Source: an uncultured bacterium
Lineage (GTDB): Bacteria; Planctomycetota; Phycisphaerae; SM23-33; FEN-1343
Assembly (NCBI GenBank): GCA_965372365.1
Contig: CBDVCA010000002.1
Location: 936 to 64,935, forward strand
Direction: 5' to 3'
DNA: 64,000 bases
Each line of letters begins with the position of its first letter. The stretch's first letter is position 1. The notes beneath the pieces were generated by a model that saw only the letters and a list, made by a program, of their open reading frames with translations, had not been told where the DNA came from and did no database searches. Below, piece by piece: positions 3,030 to 52,888 of the stretch. The position numbers were made by a program, and so were the translations under genes.

Positions 3030-3050
3030 ACTTGCACATCATGACGTTGC

Positions 3051-23800: not shown

Positions 23801-26800
23801 GCACGAGGACCTGTGCGGTCAGGAACACGCCTGGGCCGGTGTTGATGACCAGTAAGAGCGTGGCGTCGGCGGCGGTTACGCCGTCGCCGGGCAGGGCGGC
23901 GGGGGCGTCGATCTCGTAGTCCGGGACGGTCGCCGAAGAGTTGAGTACGCCTTGAGCGAAGCCCAACTGATCCAATTCGTCGGTAGGCCCGCTGGTGAGC
24001 GTGAAGTCGATGTCGCTGAGCAGGACGATCCGCCCGGTCGCATCGGCGGCGGAACCGACGCCGGAGCCGCCGGGGGTAGCTTCGAAACCGCCGACGGCGG
24101 TCGCGCGGATGTAATCGCCGAAGAACTCTCCCGGATGGCTCGGAATCGCCGTCGCCGCCAGCGCCACATTGATGTCGCGGACCAGGTCGGCGATGCTGGT
24201 GTTGGCCACCGTGTAGGGGGTCTCGCCGTTGGTGTCGACTGCGAGCACCGTTACCGAACCGACGCCGCCGTCGCCGCCGTCGAGCGACAGTTGCAGCGTG
24301 ATGTCTTCGCTGAGCACGCCGTCGATCATGCTGTCGACCGGCAGCACCCGGTACGTCTCCGGCGGACGAACCGCGGCCTCTTCGGGGGCGGCGATGATCG
24401 TAACGCCCAGCAGGTGGGCGTTGGTCGAGTCGTCGCCGATCGAGAAGGCGTGGGGGCTGGACAGCACGATTGCGCCGGCGTCGACGTAGGCGGTAATTTC
24501 GCGGAACCCGCCGCGGATCAACGCCGCCGTCACATCCTCAGCCAGGGCGGCAAGCGAGTCGGCCTCGGTGGCCCCGGTATTGTCGATCGTATCGGCCCGG
24601 AAAATCGTGATCGACCCTTCGACCACGGTGAAAACGTCGCGATCGATCTCCAGGGGCAGATCGGGCGAGAGGCGGATCGGGTCGTCGTTGGGATCGACCA
24701 GGGCTCGGACGATCGTGAGGGTGACGTTGTCGGGGAGGATGCCGGTGGTCCACAGATCCTCGTCGGGGGTGATGTCGAAGACGGCGTCGGGACGGACGGA
24801 GGCCGCGTCGGCCCCGTCGTAGACGCCGGTCAGACCCAGCAGGTCGGCCGCGGCGGACGTGGCGTAGACGTCGAAATCGACGGTCATGCTCGTGAAGGAG
24901 AGCGTCCCGCCCACGTCGGCGACCTGGATATCGAACCCGGCCGCGGCCAGGGCGGCCTCAACGTCCGCCGCTAGGTCGGCGACGGTGGTGTTGGCCGGAC
25001 CGCTTGTTCGGTCCGTGTCGGCGCGGGCGATGGTGACCGACGCTGTGGTGATAACGTCGTCGCTGTCGACCGCTTCGATGTCGAGCGTGACGTCCTGGGC
25101 GAGGACGCCGGTGGTCGGCGCGTCGCGTTCGCCGATCAGTTCGAATACCGAAGGCGCCCGGAGAGCGTTGACGCTTGCCCCGCCGTCGAGGGTCGTCAGG
25201 CCCAGCAGGTTCGCGTTGACCGAAACGGCGCCGTCGAGGGTGTAGTTCCATCCGCTGACGAATTGGATTCGATTGCCGTCCAAATGCGCCCGGATGCCGG
25301 GGAATCCGGCGAGGGTCAACGCGGCGTTCACATCGACGATAAGATCGGCCGGCGTTGTGTTGGTGGGGTCGACGGCGATCGTCACCGGGGCGGTTTCGAT
25401 CATGCCGTTGCGGTTGACCATGACGTCCAGCGTGACCGGATCGGTCAATACGGCGGCGGGGATATCGGCCTCGCCGGTGATGTAGGCGTCGTAGAAGATC
25501 TCCGTCGCCGGCAGTTCGTCGCCGCTGGTGAGGCCGACGAGTTCGAGATCCCCCGAGGCGACCTTGAGCTTGAATTCGTGCGCGCCGGTCAGCAGGATCT
25601 TGCCGTCCCGCAGCGATGCGGTGATGTAGTCGGCGAAGTCGCGGCCGCCTTCGTAGCGAGGAATGGCTGTCGCCGCCAGTTGGGCGTTGATGTCGTCAAC
25701 GAGATCGGCCAGACTCGTGTTCAGCGTCGTGTCGCCGACCGGTACGATGACCGCCCCGAGCAGTTCGTCGTCGATGTCGGTTTCTTCGATGCGGAGGATC
25801 AGCACCAGATCGCGAATCAACTGCCCCGTCGTCGGTACGGGCGCGTCGGGGGTAAGCACGGCCGGGTCGCGATGCTCGACGGTGTCCCAGTCGCCGCGAA
25901 GGCCCAGCAGGTTGACGTTCTCGGAGGTGTCGGCGATCTCGAAGTCGTACCCGAGCGTGCTGAACACGATCTTGCCGTCCACCTCGGCGGCCTCGATTGC
26001 GGCGAAGGCGCTTGTCGCGAGTTGGGCGTTGATGGTTGCGATGAGTTGGGCCTGGCTGGTGTGCAGGGCGGTCAACGCGGCCGGGATGATTACCGAGCCG
26101 GTGATCTCGCCGCCGAGGCCGTCGTCGATGCTGAGAACGAGCGTGACGTCTCGCACCAGTCGGCCGGTGGTCGGCAGGGCGACATCGCCGTGGATTTCGG
26201 CCTCGGGGTAGACGATCCGCGCCGTCAGCACGCTGGTGAGGCCCAGCAGGTCGAGGTTGACCGACGACATCAGCAGGTCGCCGGAGATCGGCAGGACGCT
26301 GAAGTCGTACGGCGCGTGGAGGATCAGCGATCGGCCGGTCCAGGTGGCGTCCATGTCGCTGAAGTACGTGCTGTCTTCCAACTCGTCGTCGAGCGTGACG
26401 ATGACCAGTGCGTCGTTGCCGTAGTCGCCGGCGTCGAGGGTTACGATCTCGGTGAAGTACCCCCCCGACCCGTCGCGCCGCTGTAGAAGGATGTCCACGT
26501 CGGCCGGCAGTACGCCGAGCAGCTTGAATTGGCCTTCGCCCACGAGGTAGGCTCGCGGGCCCTTGGCCCATTCGTTCGGTTCGATCTCGTGGAAGTGGGT
26601 CGGCGAGAGCACCTTGATGTCGTTGACGCCCTCGATTTCGATGTTGCTGAATTCGCCCCACGTTTGCACAAGGGCCGACCCGTAGATCAGCACGCTGGCG
26701 CCGGTGAAGTTGAACGGGTCGAGCGGATCGCCGACCAGAGGATCGGCGCCGCCTTCGATGTGAATCAGATCGCTGGCCTTGATCGTGGTGCCGATTCTCA

Positions 26801-29800
26801 CCTGGTGCTCGGCGATGATGATGATCTCGGTTCCGGTGGCGTCGAGGAACGGTTGGAGCTCCGAGCCGATGAACCCGCCGGTGGCGCCGTCGCGGACGGT
26901 GGTGATCTCGCCGCCGGCGATGAGGTGGCCTTCGATCTCGGCGTCGAATTTGGAGTCGATTTCGATAACGCTATCGTTCTCGTGCGTGGTGATCTCGCTG
27001 GAGCCCTGGATACGGACGCCGATCTCCCCGCCGGTATAGGGGTGTTCGGTGGTGTCCAAGTTCATGAGGGTGATCCGGTCGCTGGCGGCGATGTAGCCGC
27101 CGGTGGGGACCACGCTGCCGAACAGCGAACTGCCGGCGACGACTTCGTACCACGACGAATCGCGGCTCGACGCTACCGTCGCCGGGGAAGCGACGGTGGT
27201 GAACCCGAACAGATCGGCGTTGACCGAGCCGGCGTCGATTTCGAAGTCGTTGAGGCTGGTGAACTGCAGCCGTCCGCCGTCTTGGCCGGCGACGATGTTG
27301 TCGAGGTCGGCTGCGGCGAGGGCGTCGTTGAGGATGTCGACGAGTTGGGCGAGCGTCGTAATCCCGGCGGTGTCGGCCGGTGTGAGGGTGACCCCGGGGT
27401 CGTTGCCGGCGTCGCCGTCGTTAATGATCAGCGTGACCGACAGACCGGGGGTCAGCGACGCCGGGGCTTGGTCGGCGGTGACGGCCGCGTCGGCCCAGGC
27501 GAGGTTGGCTTGGTGGTCGCCGGCGAGCATGCCGAGCAGATCCATGCGGGTGCTGGTCGACTCGATCGTGAACGGTGCGCTGCTGGCGAATACGAGGCGG
27601 TTGTTGCGGATCTGGACCCGCAGGGCGTCGCCGAACTGGGCGGCCAGGGCGTCGGCGATCTGCGTACGCAACTCGTACAGGCGGGTGTTGCCCGCCGTGT
27701 CGGCGGCGTCGAGGGTCGTCGAGGCGGCCATGGGGGTTCCGCTCGGGTCGAGGGTGATGTCGAGTACGACGGTGTCGGCCAAGACAACTTCGGTCGCCTG
27801 GTTGACGGCCCAGCCGCCGATATAGACCTGGCCGGACGATTCGATGGACACTTCGCCGCCGACGGAGGCGTCCCAGTCGATCGTTTCCTTGATGAGGTTG
27901 CCTTCGCCGTCCCACAGTTGGCTCTTGGTGGCGCCGGCGTAGAGGTAGCCCATCATCTCGACGCCGCTTTCGCCGAAGATGCGAATCACGCCGGGGCTGC
28001 CGTCGGAGGTCCGCCCGGCGGCGGTCATGCCGCCGGCGGTGGTGACGATCACGCTGACGCGGCGTTTCTCGGCAAGGGGCAGACCGTCGTTGTCGGGGTC
28101 GAGGCTGACGTCGTCGTCGCTGGCCGCCCCACCGATGATGGTGACCGAGTCGCTGGCGAGGACGCCGCTATCGATGTAGACCTGCTCGCCGGCGGTGATG
28201 ATGACTTCGGAATCGGTACCGGACCACGTTACGCCCATTGGGCCGATGGCTCCGCCGGCCAGCACCGTGCCGAGGATGTCGACGTCGTTGGCGCCGTCGA
28301 TATGGATATTGCTGCCGTTCTGGAACGACGTGATCACGGCGGTGGCGTCGACGAATACGCTGGAGAGAATGCCCGTCTCGACGTCGACGGTCTCGCCGCG
28401 GCCGTAGATGTCGATGCCGTCTTCGACTTCGACGAAAGAGGTAGCGAACTTCACCCGCTGCCCGCTGTCGATCAGCAGGCCCGAGTTCGCCCCTCGCACG
28501 AAGATGCTGCCCTCGATAATGATGTCATCAGGGCCTTCCAGTCGCAGCAGGCTGTTGTCGGCGTAGGAGGTCAACTGGCCGGTGAGGTGGATGCTCGCGT
28601 CGACGGCGTCCCGCTCGTTGTAGTCATGGTCGATCGCGCCGGTCAGTTCCATGATGTTGGTGGAGGTAATGGCGCCGAAGATTCGCAACTCGTGCGGCGT
28701 GTTGATGACGACGTCGGCCCGGACGCCGTCGATCGGTCGCTTGACCCCGCCGACCCAGTGGGCGCCGGCGAGAATCTCGCCGCTGATGTAGACGGCTTGG
28801 GGGGCTTCGATGTGGATCAGGCTGCCGTCGCCGTCAGCGGAGATGACGCCGGCGATCTGGACCAGTTCGAAGAACGTCCCCGGCAGAATCTCGATGGTTC
28901 CGCCGGCGCCGTGGACCCAGTTCTGGCCTTCGAGCACGACGGAATTCTTCGTGATGATCTCGATGGTTCCGCCGGAGGCGAACGTTTCCATCGTGCCGGT
29001 GACGCCCTGGATGAAGTTGTTCAGCCACTTGCTGCTGTTGACCGGCGCCACGTCGGACATCATCGCCGAGGTGTACTCCTCGCCGTCACCCTGGATGTTC
29101 ACGCGGATATCGCCGTCGGTGCGGACCCAGCCGTCGACGATCATTCGGTCGCGGATCCCGTCGAAGTCCAGCAGATCGCCCCGGATACCGGAATCGGTCC
29201 GGCCGATGGGGTTGTTGATGTTCTTGTCCTTGATCTGCAGCCGATCGGTGTTCATCTGCATCACGACGGGCGGCTCGGCGCCGGGGGCGATCGCCTCGAC
29301 TTCGCCTTCGATGAAGATCTTGGCCGCGTTGAGGACGACGTCGTCGCGGAAGGCCGAGTCGCGGTCGCGGTCGGTCTGGTCGAACTTGACGATCGCGGCG
29401 TCCATCGCATCGCCGAATCGCATCACCAGAGTCGGGTTCGCGTCGCCCTGATCGTCGCCGATGGTGATCAGCGTGAAGCCGTTGGCGATGCCCGACAGGT
29501 CTCGCGTGGAGATCAACGCCGTGCCTTGGAAGATGCTGCCGTCGTTGTCGTAGGTCTTGTTCCCTTCGGGGCCGGAGAAATTTCCGCCGACGTGCCAGGG
29601 GAAGTTGGTGAACTCGGGGTAGTCGTCGGCGATGGCCGTCCAGTCGTTGCCCAACTCATGCTCGGCGGCCGTGCCCATGACGAACGTGGTGGCGTGGGGC
29701 GCGCGTAGCACCAGTTCGCCGGTTCCGATGACGCCGCCGACGGGTCGGTCGGTGGTGAGGTCGCGTCCGGCCGCGGCCGGGACGAAATCGAAGTCGTCGG

Positions 29801-32800
29801 CCAGCAGGATGATGTCCCTGTCGGCGGTGGGCGTGATGATGCTGCCGGTGTGCAAGGTCAGTCTGGCGTCGACGCCGAGCAGTTCCACTTCGATCGCGCC
29901 GTGGGCGCTGTAGAGCCCCACGGGGTTCTGGGCGGGCGTGTCGGAGAGGTCGACGCCGTAGACGACCAGGCTGTCGGTCTCGCGGACGAGGATTTCGCTG
30001 CCGTCTGCGAGGCCCTCGGTGCGGGTCAGCACCGTCAACCCGGCGACGGTGGTGATGATGGGGTTGGAGCCGGCGTACGAGGTGTTGTAGATGTTGTCGC
30101 CGGCCAGGATCAGGTGCGATCCGGCGCCGACGAATTCCATGTCGCCGGACAGGGTGATCACGCCCTCGGCGACCAGTCGCATCGATCCGCCGCCGGCGCC
30201 GTCGGTGGTTTCGCCGGTCGAGGAGGTAATGTCCACGTTCAGGTCGATGTCGGCGGGCGTTGCGGTATTGGCGGCGTAGATGTCCAGGCGGCCGTCGTTG
30301 ATCGCGTTGATCCGCTGGTTGACGATGATGTCGCTGAGGCGGATGAGCCAATCGAGGTCATGGGCGTCGATGGTGTGGTCGATGCGGCCTTCGCCGGCGC
30401 TGGAGCCGATGGTGTCGGAGGTGATATCGAAATCGCCCCGGGCCAACACGCTGCCGTCGAGCACGACATCTTCTTCGACGGTGAAGACGAAGTCGTCGCC
30501 TTCCAGATCGGTCGAAATCGTCAGGTTGCGAGCGTCGATGATCAAGTCGGTGTCGCCCAGCACGGCTCCGCCGGCGGTGGAGATGATCTCCAGGTCTCGC
30601 ATGTGGAAGGTCGTCTCGCCGGTATCGTCGATTTCCGAATCGACGACCGGCAGCGAGATCTGCTCGACGCCGTCGGTGTACCGGATGATCTCGCGGCCGT
30701 TGACGAGTTCGTGATCGTTGATGGTGAGTTGGTCGAACGGGCCGTCGACGGCGTTCATGCCGGTGAGGTTGTTCAGGATGATCCGGTCGAAGTCGGCGTC
30801 GTTGTCGATGATGCTGATGACGCCGTCGGCCTTGCTGGAGTTCTGCAGCCCCATCTCGAACGTGTACGTCGCCGACCCGCCGGTATCTTCGAGGGTCAGC
30901 GTTCCTTCGGGCAGATCGCGGAGGCGAAGCTCGTCGTCGCCGGTTCCCAGGATGATCGTGGAGATCAGGCCGCGGCCGAGGCGGAGTTCGGTGTCGCCGG
31001 TGGCGATCTTGACGCCGGTCTTGCTGATGTCGACGACCAAGTCCTCGGTCGTGCCGCTCATATCGATGATGCTGGCGCCGGCGGAGTCGGAGTAGCGATC
31101 CTGGCCGTAGCCGGCGATGAAGACGTACGTATCGATTCCGTCGCCGCCGCTGAGGGTGTCGTCGCCGGAGCCGCCGTCGATGAGGTCGGCGCTGTCGCCG
31201 CCGGTGATGCGGTCATTGCCGGCGCCGCCGATAAGCGTGTTGGCGCCGGAGCCGCCTTGGAGCGTGTCGTCGTCGTCGCCGCCGTCGAGGCTGACGGTTC
31301 CGGTTGAGGCGCTGGCGTACAGCCGATCCTCCCCGGCTCCGCCGGTCATGGCGGCGTCGCCGGTTCCGGCGGTGAGGGTGTCCTTTCCAGCGCCGCCGTC
31401 GAATTCGACAGCCACGCCGTCGAGGCCGGAAGCGTCGAAGCTATCGTCGCCGGATCCGCCGTCAGCGATAACCTTGGTGAAATCGCCGCTGGCGGTGAGA
31501 TCATCGTCGTAATCCCAACTCCAGTCGCCGTAGGAGACCTTGATCGAATCGGCGTCGCCGGTGATGGTGAAGCTTTCGCCGCCGTCGTCGGTGTCGAGGT
31601 ACTCGCGCTGGCCGGCCCGACTGCCGGAGTGGATCACCAGCGTATCGCCTTCGACGTGGGCCAGCACCGGCTGGACCTTCGGCGCGTTGTACTCCCACTC
31701 GGCGATGGTGACGTCGACGATGGTCCAATCGACCACGCGGGACATGATCTTGCCCACGAACGGGATGGAGATGCCCACGTCGACGAAGACATAGGCCTCG
31801 ATGTAGGCGCGACCGTGAATATTGACCAGGTTGGCGAATCCGCCGGCTGCGTCGTTGCCGGTGTAGTTCCACATGGTGTCGAATTCGGAGAAGTGGATCT
31901 TGCCGTCGTCGTTGACGTCTTGCAGGTCGATGCCGGTGGTGAAGCCGATCACGCCGCCGAGGCCCGCTTCGACCACCAGCGCCCAGATGGAGGCTTCGAG
32001 GCCGATTTCGGCGCCGAAGGAGAACTCGTCTTTCTCTGCGGGGTTGTCGCCGAGGCTGTAGTCGGCGATGAAGAATCCGTCCAGCGCCAGCCAGGGGTTG
32101 CCCGTTTCGATGGCCCGGCGGATGCCGTAGGTGTCGTACCCGAACCCGAGGTCGGCTTCGAGGTTGAACCCGCCGACGGCGCTGATATTGATGAGCACCG
32201 GCCCGGCGGTGATCGTCGCGATGACCTGGCTGAACCGCATGTCGTAGGTCAGCAGGGGCATTTCGTAGGTGAACAGGGTGGCGTCGCCGCCGGTGAGCAG
32301 CTTCATCCAGTTGCCGATGTCGGTGAGGTGGTCGAGGATCTCGAATCCGCCTCGTGCGGTGGACGAGCCGCCGCCGGAGACGCCGGAACCGCTGGAGGCG
32401 CCGGTGGAGTCTTCGGAGACGCCTGCGAGGAAGTCATCGAGGAACCCCGGCGCGTCGCCGTCGCCCCGGTTGGCCGAGGGCGAGTCGGTTCCCAGCCCGA
32501 GGATGTCGCCGAGCATGATTTCGCCGTCGGCGCTGAGCATCTGGTCGACCTGCTGGACGAGATCGAGCATGCTTTGTGCGGCGTAGAAGAACTGCGGGGG
32601 AATCTGCGAGTACCCGGCCAGTTCGGCGACGAAGTTGATCAGCCCGAGCAGGTTCGGGTCGTCCAGCATGATGTCGAGGCCCGGGATCGGCTCCAGCAGC
32701 ACGTCGATGATTGGCTCGATGGGCTCGAGGACGCCGCGGATGTTTTCGGCGATCGGCTTGAGTACGTCGCTGACGAAGGAGCCGACGTCGAGGCGCAGGT

Positions 32801-35800
32801 CATAGAGGCCGATTTCCGGTTCGGAGGCGCCGTTGGCCAGGTCCCAGCTCCAATCGAGGACGAAGTTGGCCTTGAGTTCGGGCAGGCCGTCGAAGCCGTC
32901 CAGCGACAGTGCGAACTCGAGGTTCATGGCCGCGTCGACGCCGAAGTTGACGCCGAACAGTTCGTCGATCGGCGACGAGAGCAGGTGGTTGAGCGTCATC
33001 CGGCTGGTCGCGGGGTCGCCCTTGATGTCGATATCGAGGAAGCCGAACAGTCCGCTGGGCTGGAAGCCCGTGACGCCGGCCTCGCGGTCGACGTCGGTCG
33101 CTTCGAGCTTGAGGAACAGCAGTTTGCCTTCGGCGTAGAAGGGCGTGACCTGGACGTTGTCCAGGGGCTTGCCGTCGAGGAACACGCCGATGCCGATTTC
33201 GAGTTCGGGGTCGGGGTCGAGTTCGGGGTGCTCTGCGTCTGCTTTGTCGTTGGTGCTCAGGTAGAAGCCGTTCAGGAGGCTCAGGCCCATGCCGAAGTCG
33301 AAGCTCCAGTCCATTTGCACGGCGAACCCGCCGTCGACGTTGAGCGCGAATCCCGGCACGTCGATGTCCAGCGGGATATCGACGCCGGTGCCGAACGCCA
33401 CGCCCCCCAGAGGCAGGTTGAATTGGATCGCGTCGGTGTCTCTGACGATCTGGGAGCCGCCGGGGGGGACGACGCTTTCGCCCGGCAGGTAGACGCCGTC
33501 GGAGTCGTAGACGAAGCCGTTCTCGGGCACCGGTTCGCCGACGACCCAGTCCTTGATTGCCACGCCGGCGGCGTCGTACCAGCCGACCAGAATGTCGCTG
33601 ACCTCGACGGTTCCGTTGCCGTCGCCGTCGAGGATGATGTTCAGCCCGGTGGGTCCGAACACGTCCCACATGCTGTCGCGGAGGAACTCGATGGCCTTGC
33701 CCGGCCCGTTGAGTTTGGCTCGCAGGTCGGCGAGGAGCCCGAGGCGCATGTCGCTGATGAAGGCCGCGGCGCTGCCGAGTTTGTCGCCGATCATCGGGAT
33801 ATCCTGGGCGAAACTGGAGCCGAGGACGTCTTCGACGCCGCCGAGGGCCATGTCGATGCCGTCGAGGATATAGGTGGGATCGTTGAGGATGCCCAGCAGG
33901 CCGAAATCGCCGCCGAGGGAGCCGACGATGTTGGGGAACGCGAACGTCACCGGCGAGGCGCCGACCCAGTCGTCGGAGTTGGTGATGTACTCGAACATCT
34001 TCAGCAGCGCCTGGTCGCCGTAGGCGGCCGAGTTGGTCTGGATTTCCAACGTACCGATGGTGATGCCGAAGATCTCGATCGGCAGATTCACGTCGAAGTT
34101 GCCCTTCAGGTCGAAGGTGAGGCTGTCCTTGATGAGTTCTTCGCCGCCGAAGTGGAACTTCTCGTCGTTGGGTACGCTTGCACTGGGCTGCTGGTCGACC
34201 GCCAGGGTGAAGGTGATCGCGTCGTCGGTCAGCGGGTTCTGGTCGCCGTCGAGCAGGACGCTTCCGCCCTTGATGCCGATATCGAACGGCTGGATGGACA
34301 GTTCGAGGTCTTCGGCGGCGATGGACGCCCCCAGTTGCAGGCGCGTGCCGATGTCGTCGGTTAGCAGCAAGGGCGTTCCGCCGTCGTCGTAGTCCCACAG
34401 GAAGAAGTCCAGACCGCTGAGGCCTTCGGTGTCGACGTCGCTGAAGTCGATGCCCAGTTCAATGGTGACGTTGGCGAAGGCTTTGAGCGTGAGCATGCCG
34501 CCGGCGTCGACGAAATCACTGAGCCCCTGCAGCGCCGCGGCGGCCGAGTTTCCGGTCATTTCCTTGAACGTCGCCAAGTCCAGCGAGAAGACGAACTGCT
34601 CTTCGAACAGCATCTCCCACTCGATGTGCATGTTGAGCGTTTCGCCGTCGAGGTAGATCGAGAAGATCTGATCGCGCCACGGCGTCGGGTCGGGGTAGTC
34701 GTCCTCGTGGTAGGTTCTGCTGAACCCGCCGACGCCGTCGGTCCAGTTGTCGTCGTCGATGCCGAGAGCGTTCTCGATAAGCAGTTCAACTTCCTGAATC
34801 ACGCCGGCGGGATTCTCGGCGGCCTCTTCGACCTTTTCGGCGAGGTCGTCGACGAAGTCCATCACGTCGGCCAGCGAGCGGTTCACCAGCGGAATGGTGG
34901 TGTTGTAGAAGGGTGTATCGCCCAAGGCGCTGTCGAGGAACCCCAGGCCGGCGCGGATGGCTTCGATGATGCTGGCGAAGTCCATGTCGCCGAAGTTGAA
35001 CACGTCGTCGAAGGTCGGGATGATGACCACGACGTGGCCGAGATCCTTGATCGCGTCGAGTTCGGCGGCGGTCTTGTCGCCCTGGGTGAACACGTCGATC
35101 TCGGACCAGTCGATGAGGTTCCCGATGGTGATCGACAGTTCCTTGCTGGCCAGGGACGACGCATCGACGCCGGGGATCGGGGTCTCGAGCGCCAGTTGTT
35201 TCAGCGCCGCGGAGGCGTACCCTTCGAAGTTGAAGTTGAATGCGTCGATCAGGGCGCCGCCGACCAGTTCGGTGAAGGAGAACTCGCGGTCGTCGGTGGT
35301 TTCGAGGTCACCGTCGGCGTCCAGCAGGATCTCGGCCTTGGCGTACAGGTGCACGCCGCTGCCGGCGCCGGGGCCGCCGGCGGTGAGGCCGATGAATCCG
35401 AGCCGGGCGTAGAATTCGAGGTCTTCGACATCGAGCCACGCTTCGCCCTTGATGTGGACGTTGTCGATGAGCATCGTGAGGCCCTCGGTCCCGGTGGGGC
35501 CGTCGAGGTCCAGCACCCAGTCGAAGCCGGCCTCGACTTGCGCCAGTACGTCCACCGTCGCCGACGTGCCGAGTTCGGCGATGTCGCCGAGGTCGATCCC
35601 CAAGTCCAGCGGGATGTCCTGGAGCCCGAAGCGGTCGTAGACGAACGTCGAGATGCTCGACTGGTCGATCAGACCGAGGTCGACCAGCCCGTACAGGTCG
35701 AAACCTTCCACGCCCAGGGCGCCGATCGCGACGTTCCCCAGTTGCAGGTCGCCTTGGGCCAGCATCAGATGGGTGATCAGATCGGCCACGGCCACGCTGA

Positions 35801-38800
35801 CGCCGGACTCGGCGCCGAGAAGATCTTCCAGCGATATCTCCCCGCTGACGACCAGCGGACTGCCGTCGAGGGCGTCGACGGTGATCAACTCGGCCGCTTC
35901 GAGGGCCGCGACCGAAATCATCGTCGTCGGGTCGAATTCGTTGCTGCCGATGAAGCCCATCTCCAGCAGGTCACGCAGTGTGTACGTGCTGGCGTCGGTC
36001 AGCAGGTCGAGGCTGACGTCGATAGCGTCGGAGACCTGGTCGGTCACGACCATGATCTCGTCGCGCTCGGTGCGAAGCGTGACGCCCAGGGCGATCAGTT
36101 GCGAAGCGGTAATCAGCCGCGAGCCGATCAGGTCGTCGTAATCGATGTACTGCCCGGCGGTGAGATCGCCGGCGTCGACCAGGTCCAAGTCGATCAGGTC
36201 CATCAGGCCGACATTGACCACGTCGGTGTTGATGAGGTCTTCGAGCGATACGTTGCCCCCCGAGACGATCCCGCTACCGTCGAGTGCGTCTTCGTCGATG
36301 GCCCCGAGGCTCTCCAGCGTGGCGACCGACAGCAGGGCGCCGCCATTGAAACTGGCCAGCGTGATCAGGTCGAAATCGACCAGATCACGCACGTCGATCA
36401 GCGACATATCCAGCATGTTGTTGAGGATATCCAGCTTGGGCAACTCGAAGTTCGGGTCGATGGCGCCCAGTTCGACGAGCGTTTCGAAAGACGCCTCACC
36501 GAGATTCTGTAGATTGCGAAGATCGAATTCGTGCAGGTTGAAGTCGAACAGGCTCGGCAGGCGGAGGATCTGGGTTTCGGGGTCGAAGGAGATTTCGACG
36601 CCTTCGGGGAGGATGCCGGCGTCGGAGAACTCGCGGATGAAGTCCTGCACGCTGCGGATCTGGGCGGGGTCGATCTTGCTGAGAATCTTGTCGTTGAACG
36701 CCGTCGCGAAGTCCAGCAGGTCGCCGAGGTTCTTGTTGATCAGCGGGATCTCGGTCTGCATGAAGTCGGCGCCGCTGAGGCTGTCCAGCCAGTTCAGCGT
36801 GCCCTGTAGCATGGCGATGAGCGTGCCGATGTTGAAATCGCTGAAGTCCAGCAGGCGGTCGAGGTTTTCGGTGGTGAACTCCAGCGGCGGCGCGCCCGCT
36901 GTCGGGAACAAGGCTCCCTCCAGCCCCACACGCGGCGTACCTTCGGCGGTGCTCCCCAGCGCGACCCCGCCCAGTTCGGCGTAGATGGGCAGGTCGGCGT
37001 GGACGGCGTTGCCGGGTTGGCCGCCGACTTCGTCGAACAGGCGGAATGCGATATCGGCCGCCGAGAACAGCAGGTCGCCGCGGGCCAGTTCGGTTGCGTT
37101 GTTGTACGAGAGCCGTCCGCCGAGGGTCAGGGACATCTCGCCCTTCTCGGCGTCGATGTCGCCGATTCCCACTTCCAGCGGGCCGACGGTGGCGCCGATG
37201 ATGAGGTCGTTGACCGAGCCGGTGGCGGTGAAGTCATAGTGGTCCAGTTCGAAGCTCACGTCGCCGCCGCTGGACCAGTCGAACGTCAGCTTCGCCTCGA
37301 CATCCTGGGTGATATTCAGGTCCAGCGTCGCGTCGCCGTCAATCGCCAGGCCGATGTTCTGGGCGCCGGCGCCGAGGTTGATGCCGACCGATCGCTCGAA
37401 CGGCATGCTCGTGGCGAAGGTGATCTCGATCGCGTCGCTTCCGATCAGTTCCCAACTGAGGGCCCCGGCCTCGCCGCCGAGGGTGGGCAGCCAGTTCTCT
37501 TGCAAGTACTGGAAGAACCCGCCCATGGTGGGCGCCCCGCCGCCGTAGTAGTCGGTGTCGCCCTGCCCTAGCGGGATGAGCGGATCGCGGACGAAGTCGC
37601 CCTGGTCCATGTGGGGGTTGAGGTAATGGCGAACGAAGTGGCCGATATTGAGGATCGAGCCGATACCCAGCACGCCGTCGAGGGTAATATCGGTTCCCGG
37701 GAGCGTGTCGGAGAGGAAGCTGCCCGAACTGATCGCCTCGCCGGTGGCCGCGTCGTATTCGATGACCAGGTCGCCGCGGAGGTCGATAATCGTCGAGCCC
37801 AGCATATCCATCGCGAGGAAGGCCAACTCGTCCAGGATGCCGCTGATATCCCGCAGGTCGGCGTCGAAGCCGGGGCTCAACTGGCCGTCGAAGAAGTCCG
37901 TATCGGCGAACGTCACCGTTGCCAGCGGCACAGCCGCGCCGCCGGCGCCCAGTTCCAGCGGCAGCGAGATGCTGACCTGGTTGGTGTGGACGGCGGCGCC
38001 GTCGCCGTTACGGATCGAGTCGAACCCGAACGAGCCGTCGTCGTAGGTCACCGTACCGCCGATATCGAGAGAGAGGCTGCCGCCGCCGTCGGTGCTCAGC
38101 TCGATGCCCTGGTAGCTGACGCCGAGGTCGATTGTGCTGGTCGAGAAGGCCCCGTCGAAGCCGAATTCGTCGAAGTCGAACGTGAACTCGCCGGTCGACA
38201 GGTTCACGCCCATGCTGAATTGCAGCAGCGTCGAAAGGGCGATGTCGGCGTCGAGGGAGCCGATCAGCGTAAGGCCGACGTCGCCGAGGTCGGTTCCGAC
38301 GTCGAGTGAGAAGTCGTCGTTGAAGCTGTAGCTGCCGTCGAAATGGATGGTGAGCTGGTCGCCGACGATGCTCGGTGTGATAAACCCGCCGCCGAGCCCC
38401 GCCCCGATGCCCGGCAGGGTGGGTACGTAGTGGGCGGTGAGGAACGTGACGAGGTCGTCCCAGATTTCCGTCGTCGTAACGCCGCCGTCCTGTACGGAGT
38501 CGACGCCGACCCAGTTGATTTCGTCAAGGTAGTCGAAGAGGTACGAGTCGATATCGAGCAGGGCCTCAAGCCCCGAGGCGGTGGGGACGTCGCCGAGGCC
38601 GTTGTCGTTGCCGGCGCCGAAGAAGCTGTCCAGCGAGCGTCCCGTGCCCGGCAGTTGGATATCCAGCAGTCCGGCATCCAGGAGGCCTTGCTTGAGGTCG
38701 CCGATGACGCCGGCGAGGTCTTCCAGCAGGCTTCGGATGACGCTGTTGGCCAGGCCGCCGAGGCCGCCGACGATATCGGGGGAATTAATCAGGATCGGAT

Positions 38801-41800
38801 CGTGGGCGCCGGGGGTTGCGCCGAACAGGTGGCGAAAAACCTCTTCCAGGCCGGTATTGGCCGTTCCGCTGCCTACGGGGGTGTTGGCGTAGGCGGGGTT
38901 GGAGCGGATCCACAGCGGCCACGTACCCAGGCCTTCGAATTGCGTGGTGACGCCGAACAGGTCCATCTCCAGCGGCAGCAGGACTTCGAACCCGCCGTCG
39001 ACGCCGGTGAAGATCACGTTATCGCCGAGGAGGGTCTCGCTGAAGCGGTACAGCCCGTCGTTGGTGACGCCCGTGCCGGGCTGCTGCTGGAGTTCGAAGG
39101 TGATCGTCACGAAGTCGGAGTGGTCGTCCGGGTCGCCCAGTTCGGGGTTGGTGGTCGAATCGCCGTCGGCGTCGATGGTGATGGCCGGATGGTAGAGAAC
39201 CGGGTCGAGGACGCCGTTCTCGTCGAGGTCGAACTGGGCGTTATCGAAGGTCGACAGGCCGATCGAATCGAAGATACTGAAGCTGATATCGAGCGATTGC
39301 CCCAGCACCTTAAAGCCGGCCGCGACGCGAGTGCCTTGCTGGAGCGGGGCGTCCCAGTCGTACAGGAACACGTCGACGGGCTGTCCGTCGGCGCGTGGGC
39401 CGAGGTCGACGCCGGCCTGGATCTTCAGTTCGGCGAAGGCGCTGAAGACCAGTTCGCCGGCGGCGTTGATCGAGACGAGATTATCAAGACCGGCCAGTCC
39501 GCCGGGCAGTCCGCCCGCCATCAGCCCCGCCAGGGCTTCGAGGTCGAAGTTGAACGGGACGGTTTCGGAGATGTCCTGGTCGAGGTTCAGGCTGAGCCGC
39601 AGGATGTTGCCTTCCATGCGGACGCCAAAAATGTCCGAGTCGGTATTGATATCGAGCCCGAGGACGTCCATCAGCATCCCGACCAGCGCCTGAACGTCGT
39701 TACCCGGATCGTGCAGGAACCGTTCGACCTTCGTCACGGCGTCTTCGAGATCGGTGATGACGCTCAGTAGTTCGGCGGGCGACTTGTTGATGATCGGCAG
39801 CTTCATATCCGGCAGCAGTTCGTACAGCGGCGACTCGGCGTCGGTCACCCAGAACGGCAACTGGTCGATCGCGTCGCGTACGTAGTCCCTCGCCCGCAGC
39901 AGCATGCTCATCAGGTCTTGGAGCCCGAGCAGTTCGCTGACGCCGAAGACGCCCGGCAGGTCTTGCAGATCAAGGGAGATGTAATTATCGTCGCTTTTGG
40001 ACAGCGACAGGTCGTCGACGCTCAGGACGATTTGTCCGCCGTGACCGATCGGGATGCCGCCAAGGCCGGTGTTGACCTTGATGCCGCGGAGCGTGGCCCG
40101 GGCCTCGCCGGTGGTTTCGACGACCCATTCGTCGTCGTCGGCGCCGGTGATCAGTTCGGAGACGAGGAACTGGCGGTCGCCGGTGGTGGCGAGGGCGCCG
40201 TCGGCGTCCAATACGCCGGTGCGGGTGATGTCGACGTGTACGAGGCTCTGGAGCCCGGCGACGTCGGCGAGCGTTACGCCGATGAATCCCAGGCGAGCGG
40301 CGACGTCCAGATCGCGAACGTCGAAGCCGACTTCGCCGGTAGCCGCGGCGTCATCGACCCACCACGTCAGCCCCTCGCTTCCGGTGGGGCCGTCGATGTC
40401 GGCGATAAGATCGAAGGTGGCCGCGGCGGCCGCGCTGATGTCGGCGACGGCGTCGGTGACCATGCCCACCAGGTCCAGGCCGTACTCGCCGGCCAGCGAG
40501 ATCGTCTGGTCGCTGAGGCCGAAGACGTTGGCGTCGTGGCCGTTGACGTCGCGAGGGGTGATCAGGCCCATTTGGGCCAAGTCCGCCGCCGAAAGCAGCG
40601 GCTCGTTATCGCCGGCCATGATCGTATCGATCAGGTCGTCGAGGTCGACGTGATCGTTCTCGTCGATCAGGCCCGAGTCGATCAGTCGCGCCAGCGGCAC
40701 GGGGGCCAGGTCCAGCGCGTCGTAGTCGACGGCGCCCAGGTCATCGAGCTCCGCTCGGGGGATAATCGCCTCGCCGGTGAGGCTGACTCCGTCCAGTTGC
40801 CCCTGCGTCGCCAGGCCGGCGTTGATGACGCCTTGGGTGCTGATCGTCACGTCCAGCAGGTCGGCGGCGACCAGGTCGGCTTCGGTGACGGTCTCGCCGG
40901 TGGCGGCGGTGTAGGCGCCGGCGGTCAGGTCGCCGGCGGCGACCGTAGCGGTCACCAATCCCGCTTGGGCGAGGGCGGCCGCGGAGATCAGTTCGCTGGC
41001 CAGCAGTTGGCGCGGGTTGATCGAGGCGCCCGACATGCCGGCGGCGGTGAGGGCGGCGTCGGCGACCAGTCCCGGGCCGGTCAGATCCGTACGGGTAATA
41101 TCGGCGCTGAAGAACCCGTACATGCCGAGGTCCGCAGCCGTAATCAGGTGCGACTCGGGATCGCCGCCATCCAGCAGCGTCGCCAGCAGTGCAGCCAGTG
41201 GCTCGGCGGTGAAGACGCCGCTGTCCACTTCGTCTTGTGTGGCCAGGCCGGTATCGACGAGTTGATCGCCGGTGAGCAGGTTCAGCGCGATCAATTCAGC
41301 CAGATCGACGGTCGCCTCGACGAGGCCGGCGTCGATGAGATCCTGCGCCGTCGCCAGACCCGACCCCAGCAGATCGGCGATGTCCACGCCGGTCGAGTAC
41401 AGGCCGTTGTCGATCAGGAGTTGCTCGGTGATGCCCAGCCCGGCGCCGATCAGATCGTCCTTGGCGGCTCCGCTGCGGAGCAGCTGGTCCAACGTGACCA
41501 GTTCCGACTCGATCAGGTCGGCGATCGCCACGTCGCCGGGCGCTACGCCGGCCGATTGCAGTTGCCCCAGCGTAACCAGCGGCGAGCCCACCAGCGCCTG
41601 CAGCGGCACGCGTCCGCTGCGGTCGTCCAGCGAGTTGTCTCGCAGTTGCTCCAGCGTGACCACGCCGGCGGTCAGCAACTCGGCCAAGTCCACGTGCGTA
41701 CCCAAGAGCCCCGCGGCCACCAGTTGCGACGCCGTCACCAGCCCCGCCCCGACGAGGGCGGCCGTCGCGACCGTGTCGAGCCCGTTGATGGCGTCGGCCG

Positions 41801-44800
41801 TCGCCAGACCCAGGTTCACCAGCAACTCCGGGTCGCCCAGATCGTCCAGGTCCATCGCCACGGTTCGCTTCAGACCGTCCAGACTCACTTCGGTCACCGT
41901 CAGGTCGCCCGGTTGGACGAGCCCGGCGTCGAAGAGTCCGCCGGGGGTGAGCAAGTGGATCACGCCGGCGTCGTACAGGTGCGTATCGGCGACCAGATCG
42001 AGCGAAAGCAGATCGTCCTTATCGACCGTCGCGGCCGGGTTGAAGTGGGACGGATCGATCACGCCCGTCCAGACGAGATCATACAGGTGAGCCAGATCGT
42101 CGCCCAGCAGGCTGGCGGCTCCGTTGAGGACGACTTCGTCGCCGACGATTACGCCGGCGGCGTCCAGCAAAGTCTGGTCGAGTACGTCGGCGTCCAAGAC
42201 GTCCTCGGTCTGCCGTGCGATTACCGACGCGGCCAAGTCTCCCGAATCCACCAACCCTTCGTCAATCAGCGACTCCAGCGACACCAGCCCCGATTGCAGC
42301 AGCGCGTGCAGCGAAACGTTCCCTTCGTCGATCAGCCCGTTGCCGGTCAGCGCCACCGACGTCGTCAGTCCCGACGTCGTCAGATCCGTCGCGGCCATCG
42401 CGATATTCTGGAAATGCCACCTAGCCAAAATCCCCTGATCGACCAAGTCTCCCAAGCCGGCGAAATTGCGGACGATCAGGTCGTTCACATCGACCAGTCC
42501 CGCCGCGGCGAGGTCGCCGATGTAGTGGTCTTCGACCACGTCGTACAGCCGAACCTCGTGGGCGCTGATGAAGTTGTTCAGGTCGCCGGGCTCGAACAGG
42601 CTCGACGCTTCGAGGTCGCGGATATCCAGCCCGATCGCCTGGTCGGCCAGGTCGGCCTCGGAGATGAATCCGGCGTCGATGAGCGAGGTGAGCGTTACGC
42701 CGGGAAGATCCAGCGTAAGCAGGTCGTACAGGTTGACGATCGGCTCGCGGTCGGCCGGTACGTCCACGCCGAAGTCGGCTTCGATAGTGGCCGCGGTCAG
42801 CGGCGCATCATCGAAATCGAAGTGCGTGAGGAATCCGGCGTCGATGAAGTCGGTCAGCGTGACGGTGAACAGGATCGAGCCCAGCAGCGTGTCCTCGGCG
42901 GCCACCGCGCCGTGAGCGACCAGCGGGGCGTTGCCTACGTGTACGACGCGGTCGAACTCGCCGTCCTCGAACATCGGCTCCCCGCCCAGCAACATCGCTT
43001 CCAGGACGCTCTGTTCGAAGACTTTGTTAATAAACGCGTCGGCGCGGAGCACGCCGCCGGCGACCAGCGACGCGAACGACAGATTCGGGTCGGTCAGCAG
43101 CGCCTCGATGAGGATGTAGTCGTCCATCCCCGCCACTTCGCCGGCAAGCCCGTTGTCGTCGACATATTTCTGCCCGACGGCGTTGGACTCCAGCAGGTCT
43201 TCGAGGCTCACGCGGCCGTCGACGAGCAGATCGCTTGCGGTCACCAAACCCACGTCGACCAGGTGTCGCAGGGAGACGGCGCTGTCGTCCCACAGGTCGG
43301 TCCATCGCGTCAGGCCGCTCCCGACGACGGTTTCCAGGTCGGTCAGCCCCGATGCCAGCAGGTCTTCCAGGTCGACCGTATCGCCGGTGACGCCGTTGTC
43401 GGTGAGGGCCTTGTTGCTGACGGCGTTGGTCGACAGCAATATCGCCAGCGTAACGGCGGTCGTCGTCAGGGGGGCGCCGGCGAGCCAGCCTTGGGCGGCC
43501 GCGTCGGAGAGGCTGAGCAGTTCGAGGTCGAGCAGGTCGTCGAGAGAGGCGATCCGGTCGTTGGGGCCGCCCGCCACCTGCAGCAGGGCGTTGTCGTCCA
43601 GCGCCCGCGGCGAGACCAATCCCGACGCCAGCAGGTCGTGTTCGCTGACGGTCACCGCGCTGAGGTCGAAGTCGCTCGCCGTCAGAACCCCGGCGTCGAT
43701 CAGGTCGCTGGTGCTCGCCAACCCTGCGCCCGCCAACGCGGCCGGCGAGACGATATCGACGCCGGCGGCGTTCTGGGTAACGTGCGGGGCCAGCAGGCCG
43801 GCGCCGATGATATTGGACGCCAGCAGGTCGTCGCGGTCCACGCCGCCTTGGACGAAGATCTCGTCCAGCGTCGCGTCGCCCAAGTCGGCCAGATTGTCGT
43901 TGGTCAGTAGCCCCAGTTCGTGCAACTGTTGCACGGTGACGGACGTACTGGCGACCAGGGCCGCGATCGATACGGTGTCGCCGTGGTCGATCAGCGACAG
44001 GTCTTGGAGGCTTTGAACGGTGGCCGCGTCGAGCCCCACGACGTCCAGGTCCACCTGGCCGAGGTCGTTCAGGTCGGCTACGTGGAGTTCGCCGAGCGTG
44101 ACAAGGTCTTCAATCGTCAGCAGGCTCGACTCGATCAGCGCCGCGGCGCCGAGGCGTTCGAGCAGGTTAGTGTCGAGCAGGTTGGTCGCCAGCAGGTCGG
44201 TTCGCGTGACGGTTCCCAGGTCGGGGAGGTCTTCGTGGGTGATGAACTGGAAGTAGACCAGGTGCCTTAACTGGATGGGGCTGTCGGCGAGGAGCGTGTC
44301 GAGGTCGATGATCGACCCGGGGCCGATGAGGCCGCCGTCGGCGATAATGTCGGTGAGAAGATCGCCGGCGACGTCGGCGATTTCGGAGGTCTTCCAGGCG
44401 TCCAGTATGGCGTCGGCGGGGCCGAGGATGCTCTGTCGGGCCAGATCCTCGAGGGTCATCAGGGTCGAGTCCAGCAGCGAGCGGATGGGCAACTGCTCGG
44501 TGATCAGATCGCGGAGGTCGACCAGGGATCCGGAGACCAGATCGGCCAACGTCGCGGCTTCGGAGTCCAGCAGTTCGTGGACATCCAGAGCGTTCAGCGT
44601 TAGGTCGGCTACGTTCAACAGGCTGCGGTTCACCAGTTCGGCCGCATCGAACAACGCCGCGTCCAGCACCTCAGACAGCGCCGCCGTCGTCGGTAGGAGG
44701 TTGCCGACGGTGACGAGGCCGGCGTCGAGAAGCTCCAGCAGGTCGACGATTCCCTCGTTCACGATCTGATGCAGCGAGACGGTTCCGCCGTTGACCAGCG

Positions 44801-52784: not shown

Positions 52785-52888
52785 GTTTGGCTCTCGACGC
52801 GACCAATGAGTATACCGTCGATTATACACCGTCCACACGTATCGACTAACGTGTTCCGACCCCAAACAGTGCAGAGGATGCGACCCGA

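What the first reader, a model, noticed from the sequence alone, without database searches (positions are those of the whole stretch)
31500..46780. Internal duplication of a multi-kilobase supermodule (copy 1 ~9.1 kb, copy 2 ~6.2 kb)
The N-terminal third of the protein is two paralogous supermodules, each with the same ordered set of sub-domains: HYL(H/N)P N-domain, IPxxNxSL helical module, acidic DL-array, DGPTGxEGLT domain, second IPxxN module. Copies are diverged (roughly 30-40% identity by eye), so the duplication is ancient and both copies are retained. The size difference is due almost entirely to the acidic repeat array (about 1,750 versus 350 aa).
Basis: seen in the sequence. Interest (0 to 1): 0.6.

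Follow-up and report, generated by a model that had tools for sequence, protein, structure and literature searches.

The report
Ancient supermodule duplication in giant protein
The front third of a 13,765-residue secreted-type bacterial protein contains an ancient, conserved duplication of a large uncharacterised module, and each copy is split at the same point by a long array of a previously undescribed 11-residue repeat; this is a solid but not startling result, useful mainly for defining a new module family.

Summary

Corrections:
- The homologous part of copy 2 ends at aa ~4410, not 5200.
- aa 4411-5210 is a unique tail and the best-conserved part.
- aa 2801-3100 is a third N-domain copy.
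- N-H and D-H' are themselves distant homologues (96% probability), so the duplication is nested.

About 17 orthologous loci from independent assemblies keep the same order, so the duplication predates all of them. Array 1 spans 1,263-2,008 aa and array 2 spans 308-427 aa. Both arrays are as conserved (~44% identity) as the globular parts and show no DNA-level repeats, so they are not fast-turnover repeats.

An exhaustive profile search found 359 related clusters. Most carry one contiguous N-H-D-H'-tail cassette followed by RTX repeats and have no array. Copy 2 plus tail is therefore the canonical cassette, copy 1 is a derived partial duplicate, and the arrays are lineage-specific insertions at one junction. 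Function is unknown; a spacer role is inferred. Pfam, NCBIfam and PDB give no match except LEPR-XLL, RTX and C-terminal FG-GAP.

The parts
5829..47126 (-). Giant ORF, 13,765 aa. It is acidic (net charge -1647), has one Cys and no TM-like segment.
46962..46994 (-). N-terminal LEPR-XLL motif (aa 45-55, 'ALEPRLMLS').
   Evidence: NCBIfam NF012209, 20.2 bits against a cutoff of 17
45927..46949 (-). N1: N-domain of copy 1 (aa 60-400; RHYLHP at 119).
45717..45926 (-). H1: first IPxxN helical module of copy 1 (aa 401-470).
40530..45716 (-). Array 1 (aa 471-2199, 1,729 aa). About 85 clear units of the 11-residue repeat, consensus LADLLDAGLVT, with the rest degenerate.
39807..40529 (-). D1: DGPTGxEGLT beta-domain of copy 1 (aa 2200-2440).
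38727..39806 (-). H1b: second IPxxN module plus following region of copy 1 (aa 2441-2800).
37827..38726 (-). N1b: third, extra N-domain copy with no following H module (aa 2801-3100).
   Evidence: hhalign 99.1% to N2 and 96.6% to N1
36750..37826 (-). N2: N-domain of copy 2 (aa 3101-3459; RHYLNP at 3166). This is the canonical type.
36537..36749 (-). H2: first IPxxN helical module of copy 2 (aa 3460-3530).
35577..36536 (-). Array 2 (aa 3531-3850, 320 aa). About 14 clear units of the same 11-residue repeat.
34893..35576 (-). D2: DGPTGxEGLT beta-domain of copy 2 (aa 3851-4078).
33897..34892 (-). H2b: second IPxxN module plus following region of copy 2 (aa 4079-4410). The duplicated sequence ends here.
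31497..33896 (-). Tail A+B (aa 4411-5210). Not duplicated, best-conserved segment (63-73% identity to orthologues), and part of the canonical cassette in relatives.
31122..31460 (-). RTX nonapeptide repeats directly after the tail (aa ~5223-5335).

Best explanation
The window encodes a 13,765-aa, highly acidic giant protein of the LEPR-XLL / RTX class with no transmembrane segment. It is presumably secreted or surface-exposed.

Its first ~5,200 residues are built hierarchically from one uncharacterised half-unit, a beta-rich domain followed by an 'IPxxN' helical module.

1. Shown: an old duplication of this half-unit gave N-H and D-H'. Together with a conserved ~800-aa tail they form a ~1.8-kaa cassette, N-H-D-H'-tailA-tailB, usually followed by RTX repeats. 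This cassette occurs once, contiguously, in hundreds of other giant proteins.
2. Shown for position, inferred for order: in this protein's lineage an array of an 11-residue repeat (consensus L-a-D-L-[LVI]-d-[AS]-G-L-[VIL]-[TD]) was inserted exactly at the H|D junction.
3. Shown: the array-bearing N-H-array-D-H' block was then duplicated, and an extra N-domain (N1b) arose. The result is N1-H1-array1-D1-H1b-N1b-N2-H2-array2-D2-H2b-tail. Copy 2 plus tail keeps the canonical character and copy 1 is the more diverged derivative.
4. Shown: the order is fixed in all orthologues. Array 1 is always 3-6 times longer than array 2. Both arrays are conserved position by position and change length only by occasional block indels.

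Inferred mechanism, probability about 0.4: each 11-residue unit is a short Gly-capped helix plus turn. The arrays fold into extended, Asp-lined (possibly Ca2+-stiffened) rods that set fixed distances between the N-H and D-H' halves, in the way extender regions work in giant adhesins.
For: Duplication:
- BLAST blocks at E 6e-47 and 3e-45.
- hhalign probabilities of 99.5-99.9%.

Third N-domain.

Nested N-H ~ D-H' homology: hhalign 96.2%, E 2.4e-9, 206 collinear columns. Collinear cross-hits appear in many relatives.

Conservation of architecture:
- Loci L001-L019 come from independent assemblies and all have the same order.
- Paralogue groups are separated in every genome.

Canonical cassette:
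- The exhaustive hmmsearch gave 359 hits at E <= 1e-3 and 93 at E <= 1e-30.
- Relatives show NH-DH-tailA-tailB contiguously.
- H-to-D linkers are 0-3 aa or ~65 aa in the array-less cassettes (47 cassettes examined), and the same flanking motifs run directly into each other.
- RTX follows the tail in most relatives.
- 53 of 59 N-domains are N2-like.

Arrays:
- Period 11 in both.
- The unit is specific to the arrays: 85 observed vs 14.7 in shuffles, and 14 vs 2.0.
- Cross-validated between arrays and in L003, and absent from array-less relatives.
- Orthologue identity in the arrays is 43-44%, within the 35-57% range of the duplicated globular sub-domains.
- One shared 417-aa block indel explains the array-1 length classes.
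- Lengths across loci are tabulated.
- No DNA tandem repeats.

Helix-turn unit: low-confidence AF2 helices fall on unit positions 1-6 and loops on 7-11.

Protein class:
- LEPR-XLL hit.
- RTX.
- FG-GAP, PKD, Ig and dockerin-like hits at the C-terminus.
- Acidity and lack of TM-like segments.
Against: - No experimental or high-confidence structural evidence exists for any sub-domain. The AF2 models had mean pLDDT of 50 and 40 and the fold search gave nothing significant.
- The spacer or rod role of the arrays is pure inference. Calcium binding is not shown and no EF-hand or dockerin model matches the arrays.
- The order of events (array before duplication) rests on parsimony. The array-1 and array-2 unit models correlate only at r = 0.44.
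- N1b is not clearly closer to N2 than N1 is, so its origin is unresolved: either a late tandem duplication of N2 or an ancestral N-N tandem as in P0049 and P0062.
- The secretion route is unknown and no export genes lie in the window.
- MAG taxonomic labels of the orthologues are heterogeneous, so vertical and horizontal history cannot be separated.
Confidence: 0.8

Rival explanations
1. The apparent duplication is a compositional artefact. Two Leu/Asp-rich low-complexity stretches would give spurious alignments.
For: The arrays are strongly biased (L ~19%, D ~13%), and some BLAST HSPs are array-to-array.
Confidence: 0.01
2. Assembly artefact or chimeric ORF. The two copies would come from mis-joined contigs or collapsed paralogous genes.
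For: Giant repetitive genes are prone to mis-assembly, and some related loci are frameshifted (L001, L007).
Against: The copies are only 27-44% identical, with no DNA-level repeat to cause mis-joins. About 17 independently assembled loci show the same order, several within one uninterrupted frame; for example L003 aligns in a single 7,759-column HSP.
Confidence: 0.01
3. The arrays were acquired independently in the two copies after the duplication, by convergent insertion at a permissive junction, rather than inherited from an array-bearing ancestor.
For: The H|D junction is an insertion hot spot. Distant relatives (P0109, P0131, P0140, P0099, P0107) carry a different ~100-aa repeat at the same junction. 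The unit models of the two arrays correlate only at r = 0.44.
Against: Both arrays share the same 11-residue period and consensus, and each model recognises the other array far above shuffles: 13 vs 1.6, and 52 vs 15.1. An array-2 HMM hits all along array 1 (E 1e-7 to 7e-15). No relative was found with a duplicated block and only one array.
Confidence: 0.12
4. The arrays are intrinsically disordered acidic linkers, acting as entropic springs or Ca2+ buffers, rather than folded helical rods.
For: AF2 confidence in the array is low (pLDDT 25-62). The arrays are highly acidic (D+E 17-19%, K+R ~2.5%). No known repeat family matches.
Against: The arrays are very hydrophobic for disordered sequence (L+V+I+A ~45%). 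They have a strict amphipathic 11-residue pattern with conserved Gly and capping residues. They are conserved position by position at ~44% identity with few indels across orthologues, which is untypical of disordered linkers. The low pLDDT is expected from 7-sequence alignments.
Confidence: 0.2
5. The arrays are fast-evolving variable-number repeats, serving contingency-type length variation or antigenic variation of a surface protein.
For: Array 1 ranges from 1,263 to 2,008 aa and array 2 from 308 to 427 aa among orthologues.
Against: There are no DNA-level tandem repeats and the units are degenerate. Orthologous positions are alignable at 43-44% identity. The array-1 length classes among the seven aligned orthologues come from one shared 417-aa block indel. 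Indel lengths are not enriched for multiples of 11.
Confidence: 0.03

Closest known systems
LEPR-XLL domain-containing giant proteins (NCBIfam NF012209, 'LEPR-8K')
   Same: The N-terminal LEPR-XLL motif scores above the curated cutoff. A relative carrying the same cassette, P0033 = NVK17780.1 (7,008 aa), is annotated with this name. A Vibrio ~8,000-aa LEPR-XLL plus RTX protein is mentioned in PMC10868602.
   Different: The family is defined only by a ~24-residue N-terminal motif and says nothing about the body of the protein. Neither the N-H-D-H'-tail cassette, nor its duplication, nor the 11-residue arrays are described there. No function has been tested.
Giant RTX adhesins with repetitive extender regions (LapA, MpIBP, SiiE type; from general knowledge)
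   Same: Very large, acidic, Ca2+-associated (RTX) extracellular proteins in which a long repetitive region is thought to act as a length-setting extender between functional ends.
   Different: Known extenders are tandem ~100-aa Ig-like domains, often nearly identical at DNA level, whereas here the units are degenerate 11-residue repeats with no DNA repeats. RTX repeats here are internal (aa ~5,220-5,340), not C-terminal. No T1SS genes lie in the window. No BIg or cadherin arrays were detected in the N-terminal third.
Giant proteins of the PVC superphylum and Omnitrophota (bioRxiv 10.1101/2023.11.21.568195)
   Same: Proteins over 10,000 aa occur in Planctomycetota, Verrucomicrobiota and relatives. 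They are largely unannotated, repetitive, and proposed to mediate surface adhesion. Some orthologues here come from Planctomycetota and Verrucomicrobiota MAGs.
   Different: The domain content described there (Archaeovorins with GT, TPR and other domains; Dockerin/TSP3-type proteins) does not match. The modules here have no Pfam or PDB match.
Hendecad (11-residue) helical repeats, e.g. apolipoprotein, alpha-synuclein or LEA-type 11-mers (from general knowledge)
   Same: An 11-residue periodicity with hydrophobic positions spaced i, i+3, i+4.
   Different: Those form long continuous amphipathic helices and lack a conserved Gly. Here a conserved Gly at position 8 and T/D/S at position 11 suggest one short capped helix per unit. 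No sequence-family match was found.

Membership tests
LEPR-XLL domain-containing protein (NCBIfam NF012209) | N-terminal LEPR-XLL motif scoring above the curated cutoff | tested here: met
   aa 45-55 score 20.2 bits against a cutoff of 17, E 3e-4. The same motif is at the N-terminus of orthologues and many relatives.
LEPR-XLL domain-containing protein (NCBIfam NF012209) | Very large protein (thousands of residues) | tested here: met
   13,765 aa. Relatives are 3,000-8,000 aa.
N-H-D-H'-tail cassette family (defined here; no public name) | Contiguous, collinear N, H, D, H', tailA and tailB modules | tested here: met
   Copy 2 plus tail matches all family HMMs end to end: NH 3102-3528, DH 3832-4408, tailA 4411-4800, tailB 4801-5206. 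The same order appears in 20+ large relatives. The difference is a 320-aa array at the H|D junction.
N-H-D-H'-tail cassette family (defined here; no public name) | RTX nonapeptide repeats directly after the tail | tested here: met
   Six GGxGxD motifs at aa 5223-5332. Pfam HemolysinCabind hit. Three to eight such motifs follow the tail in most relatives.
T1SS-secreted RTX adhesin (LapA/MpIBP type) | C-terminal RTX block plus secretion signal | tested here: not met
   RTX repeats are at aa ~5,220-5,340 of 13,765. The C-terminus carries FG-GAP, PKD, Ig and dockerin-like segments instead.
T1SS-secreted RTX adhesin (LapA/MpIBP type) | Adjacent T1SS genes (ABC transporter, MFP, TolC) | tested here: not met
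   None among the window's neighbours. A distant relative (L021) has OEP, MFP-like and SecA-like neighbours, but the window's ORFs are unrelated to them.
T1SS-secreted RTX adhesin (LapA/MpIBP type) | Extender made of tandem Ig-like domains | tested here: not met
   No Ig, BIg or cadherin Pfam hits in aa 1-5,300. The repetitive region is an 11-residue array.
Variable-number tandem-repeat surface proteins | Near-identical repeats at DNA level, with unit-wise length variation | tested here: not met
   TRF finds only four trivial rows. Indels are not multiples of 11. The arrays align position by position between orthologues.
Known short helical or Ca-binding repeats (TPR, HEAT, ANK, LRR, EF-hand, dockerin) | Match to the family profile | tested here: not met
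   Pfam and NCBIfam scans of the arrays give no hit apart from a sub-threshold HhH-like match (16.7 bits against 29.8).
Known protein folds (PDB) | Sequence-profile or structural match for N-H, D-H' or tail | tested here: inconclusive
   No PDB sequence-profile hits. Foldseek with a low-confidence model gave nothing at E <= 1e-3. The models are too poor (pLDDT 40-50) to exclude a known fold.

The most novel reading that the evidence does not exclude
The N-H-D-H'-tail cassette is a previously undescribed, widespread structural module of LEPR-XLL/RTX giant proteins, with about 360 clusters at 50% identity. The 11-residue Gly-capped helix-turn arrays would be a new kind of repeat fold: a rod of up to ~180 units, conserved in sequence and length class, inserted at one defined junction. 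It would work as a molecular ruler that spaces the two halves of the cassette differently in the two paralogous copies, with a long arm and a short arm.
Probability: 0.3. Interest if true: 0.6.

Novelty: new variant of a known kind. Interest (0 to 1): 0.42.

Why it matters
Giant bacterial proteins are mostly unannotated. Here the first ~5,200 residues of a 13.7-kaa protein resolve into a small set of recurring modules with defined boundaries, a nested duplication history, and a family of about 360 clusters that could be turned into domain models (N, H, D, H', tail).

The arrays are an unusual case of a very long short-period repeat (up to ~2,000 aa of 11-mers) that is conserved like a folded domain rather than evolving as a variable repeat. 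If they form rigid rods they would be a new natural spacer architecture.

None of this bears on a long-standing open question. Internal duplication in giant surface proteins is expected, so the value is descriptive and enabling rather than surprising.

Tried and rejected
- **Whole-protein self-BLAST** returned only the identity hit. I replaced it with 400-aa chunk comparisons.
- **HMMER with an 11-residue model** under-counted units. I replaced it with a PSSM scan and shuffle controls.
- **Regex landmarks** failed on diverged orthologues. I replaced them with MSA and HMM landmarks.
- **Word-indexed protein searches** found only 2-3 fragments each.
- **Exhaustive profile job** failed twice because overhanging rows pushed the profile above 1,200 positions. 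It succeeded after trimming.
- **PDB sequence-profile searches** for N-H, D-H' and tail found no hits.
- **Source organism:** exact look-ups of two window proteins found nothing, so the organism remains unknown.
- **Synteny:** no conserved upstream synteny between the window and orthologous loci. The window's 1,275-aa upstream ORF is unrelated to the export-type neighbours of relative P0033.
- **Higher-order periodicity in array 1:** none found beyond lag 11. Array-2-HMM hits on array 1 overlap without a fixed register.
- **Unit-wise slippage:** rejected.
Full report
**1. What is at the coordinates**

The window carries one uninterrupted ORF on the minus strand, 5829-47126, encoding 13,765 aa. 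The finding (31500-46780) corresponds to aa 116-5209. The window is about 65% G+C.

The protein is extremely acidic: D+E 2,195 against K+R 548, net charge -1647. It has a single Cys and no hydrophobic segment of transmembrane type.

Pfam and NCBIfam recognise very little of it:
- An N-terminal LEPR-XLL motif at aa 45-55 (NF012209, 20.2 bits against a cutoff of 17).
- RTX nonapeptide repeats at aa ~5,220-5,340.
- FG-GAP repeats at the C-terminus, plus weak PKD, Big_5 and dockerin hits.

**2.

BLASTP of aa 101-3150 against 3151-5210 gives two long collinear blocks:
- 106-746 ~ 3153-3820, 29% identity, E 6e-47.
- 1915-2791 ~ 3535-4406, 27% identity, E 3e-45.

A 400-aa chunk matrix shows this is the only such off-diagonal in the first 5,200 residues.

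Because the arrays are compositionally biased, I tested the non-array sub-domains separately against 100 composition-preserving shuffles.

|---|---|---|
| N1 / N2 | 38.6% | 43 |
| H1 / H2 | 36% | 16 |
| D1 / D2 | 44% | 27 |
| H1b / H2b | 34% | 30 |
| N1 / D2 (negative control) | - | 1.6 |

Profile-profile comparison using seven orthologues gives probabilities of 99.5-99.9% for the four pairs.

**3. Corrections to the anatomy**

It matches N2 at 99.1% and N1 at 96.6% (alignment; HMM hit 2798-3099). It has no H module after it.
- The duplication begins near aa 60, not 115.
- The 'second IPxxN module' has a deeper meaning. The N-H profile aligns collinearly with the D-H' profile over 206 columns (hhalign 96.2%, E 2.4e-9). 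The same cross-hits recur in many relatives. The basic building block is therefore a beta-rich domain plus an IPxxN helical module.
- The window protein has five copies of the beta-domain (N1, D1, N1b, N2, D2) and four of the helical module.
- For the truly homologous parts (2,740 vs 1,310 aa), the arrays (1,729 vs 320 aa) account for 1,409 of the 1,430-aa difference.

**4. The arrays**

Both arrays show a sharp 11-residue autocorrelation peak that is absent from a control region. An iterated PSSM gives the unit L-a-D-L-[LVI]-d-[AS]-G-L-[VIL]-[TD].

Unit counts:
- Array 1: 85 clear units, against 14.7 in shuffles.
- Array 2: 14 clear units, against 2.0 in shuffles.
- Essentially none in any other part of the protein.

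Cross-validation:
- A model trained only on array 1 finds 13 units in array 2 (shuffles 1.6).
- A model trained only on array 2 finds 52 units in array 1 (shuffles 15.1).
- The unit is also present in the arrays of orthologue L003.
- It is absent from array-less relatives.

There is no higher-order period and no DNA-level tandem repeat.

The low-confidence AF2 model places short helices on unit positions 1-6 and loops on 7-11, often exactly 11 residues apart. This fits the conserved Gly at position 8 and the T/D/S at position 11 acting as helix caps, which is my inference.

**5. Orthologues**

Word-indexed searches of 5.8 billion clusters found only fragments. Scans of genome and metagenome contigs gave loci L003-L019, and L001/L002 came from the fragments.

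The loci come from MAGs labelled Phycisphaerae, Pirellulales, Planctomycetaceae, Desulfobacterales/Deltaproteobacteria, Gammaproteobacteria and Roseibacillus. They are 37-50% identical to the window protein and collinear with it. For example, L003 aligns in one 7,759-column HSP.

With sub-domain HMMs as landmarks, every informative locus shows N1-H1-[array 1]-D1-H1b-N1b-N2-H2-[array 2]-D2-H2b-tailA-tailB.

Identity within each paralogue group (>= 37%) exceeds identity between groups (<= 31%). The duplication, including N1b, therefore predates all sampled orthologues.

Non-array sub-domains have nearly fixed lengths. Array lengths:
- Array 1: 1,263-1,313, 1,657-1,741, or 2,008 aa.
- Array 2: 308-427 aa.
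- Ratio of array 1 to array 2: always 3.1-6.0.

The two main array-1 classes differ by one block indel at window aa 1778-2194, shared by three loci.

Arrays are as conserved between orthologues (43-44% identity, few gaps) as the globular parts (35-57%). Indel lengths are not enriched for multiples of 11. The arrays therefore behave as structured, selected sequence, not as variable-number repeats.

**6. The wider family changes the interpretation**

An exhaustive hmmsearch of 1.84 billion representatives, using a profile of copy 2 (aa 3140-4290), found 359 proteins at E <= 1e-3 and 93 at E <= 1e-30. Many are 3,000-8,000 aa long.

I scanned them with family HMMs. The common architecture is one contiguous cassette, NH-DH-tailA-tailB, at variable positions in the protein.
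- Forty-seven cassettes were examined. In the array-less ones the H-to-D distance is 0-3 aa, or ~65 aa where the diverged D start is simply unmatched.
- The sequence runs directly from '...YDPxTxxFxIPLxF' into '...PLDFGFDLGD..STSA..VDLDG'. These are the motifs that flank both arrays in the window protein.
- Only fragments orthologous to the window protein (P0001, P0008, P0016, P0028) have arrays.
- RTX motifs follow the tail in most relatives.
- Many relatives start with a LEPR motif.
- One relative is annotated 'LEPR-XLL domain-containing protein'.
- 53 of 59 N-domains in relatives score best with the N2 model.
- The tail is the best-conserved segment among orthologues, at 63-73% identity.

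Taken together:
- Copy 2 plus tail is the canonical cassette with an array inserted at the H|D junction.
- Copy 1 is a derived partial duplicate that lacks the tail.
- One relative, P0062, has independently duplicated the whole cassette.
- Some distant relatives carry a different ~100-aa repeat at the same junction, which marks the junction as permissive.

**7. Mechanism**

What is shown is the modular anatomy, the nested duplication history, the fixed insertion point, and the conservation pattern.

What is inferred:
- The protein is exported. The grounds are the LEPR-XLL motif, RTX repeats, acidity, absence of TM segments, and C-terminal FG-GAP, PKD, Ig and dockerin-like parts.
- The arrays form extended helix-turn rods, possibly stiffened by Ca2+ bound to the Asp-rich surface. 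These would hold N-H and D-H' apart by a long distance in copy 1 and a short distance in copy 2, analogous to extender regions of giant adhesins. I put this at roughly 0.4.
- The main alternative is a disordered acidic linker (~0.2). The hydrophobic, strictly patterned and positionally conserved sequence argues against it.

No fold or activity can be assigned to N, H, D, H' or the tail. There are no PDB profile hits, no significant Foldseek match, and the relatives are equally blank in Pfam.

**8. Comparison with what is known, and novelty**

The protein meets the only defining feature of the NCBIfam LEPR-XLL class. It fails the defining features of T1SS RTX adhesins: no C-terminal RTX block, no adjacent T1SS genes, and no Ig-like extender.

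Giant proteins over 10 kaa are documented in the PVC superphylum (bioRxiv 10.1101/2023.11.21.568195). An ~8-kaa LEPR-XLL plus RTX protein is mentioned for a Vibrio clade (PMC10868602). Neither source describes these modules.

Internal duplication in such proteins is expected. The cassette family and the conserved 11-residue arrays appear to be undescribed.

I rate the finding a new variant of a known kind, with interest about 0.4.

Noticed in passing
window 31497-33896 (aa 4411-5210): The non-duplicated 'tail' is the most conserved part of the N-terminal third: 63-73% identity to orthologues, with about 100 invariant columns across distant relatives. It belongs to the canonical cassette. It has no Pfam, NCBIfam or PDB match.
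   Followed up: partly
window 35240-35323 vs 40127-40210, and 35475-35510 vs 40365-40400: These are the only DNA-level similarity between the copies: 84 nt at 77% and 36 nt at 86%, in register in D2/D1. They lie at the DGPTGxEGLT motif, which only the window's D1 shares with D2; orthologues' D1 reads DGQPGG.. instead. Window D1-D2 identity is 39.7% against 22-28% in other genomes. This is compatible with a short gene-conversion tract or a slowly evolving D1.
   Followed up: partly
L021:5638-35414 (Methylocystaceae MAG, relative P0033): A 7,008-aa LEPR-XLL protein with the same cassette is flanked by a TolC-like OEP, two membrane-fusion-like proteins, DUF3467, an M50-like protein and a SecA-like ATPase. 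This may be a dedicated export system. The window has no such neighbours.
   Followed up: partly
P0109 aa 750-1178; also P0131, P0140, P0099, P0107: Distant relatives carry a different ~100-aa repeat (motif '..DDLVADLNAALAAAGL..') inserted at the same H|D junction where the window protein has its 11-residue arrays. The junction looks like an insertion hot spot.
   Followed up: no
window 46782-47126 (aa 1-115) compared with L003, L005, L006, L010, L011: Orthologues have about 230-290 extra residues between the LEPR motif and N1 that the window protein lacks. In loci L004, L014, L015 and L016 the N1 domain is not detected, so it is truncated in that clade.
   Followed up: no
L008 and L017 (and P0003): Insertions of ~100-116 aa sit inside N1b, N2 and H2b in these loci. 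L017 also has the longest array 1, at 2,008 aa.
   Followed up: no
window ~23127-27929 (aa 6400-8000) and ~6327-8729 (aa 12800-13600): There are further weak internal repeats elsewhere in the giant protein, unrelated to the supermodules. About 8,000 aa between the RTX block and the C-terminal FG-GAP region have no annotation at all.
   Followed up: no
window 5832-7331 (C-terminal 500 aa): The C-terminus has FG-GAP repeats, weak PKD, Big_5 and dockerin-type I hits, and a basic tail ('NRRRVRRLHQPK'). This may be a binding or anchoring end.
   Followed up: no
window 4241-5761 (-) and 49485-53312 (-): A GT87-like glycosyltransferase lies immediately downstream of the giant gene. A 1,275-aa ORF with no Pfam or NCBIfam match lies upstream, and further upstream is an NADH-oxidoreductase/ferredoxin-type cluster. 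No synteny with orthologous loci was detected.
   Followed up: partly
arrays, e.g. aa 1303, 1248, 3623, 3761: An element 'G-x-V-[SD]-L-x-[DE]-L-L', resembling the second half of an EF-hand or dockerin loop, occurs 12 times in array 1, twice in array 2, and nowhere else in the 13.7-kaa protein. Spacing is irregular.
   Followed up: no
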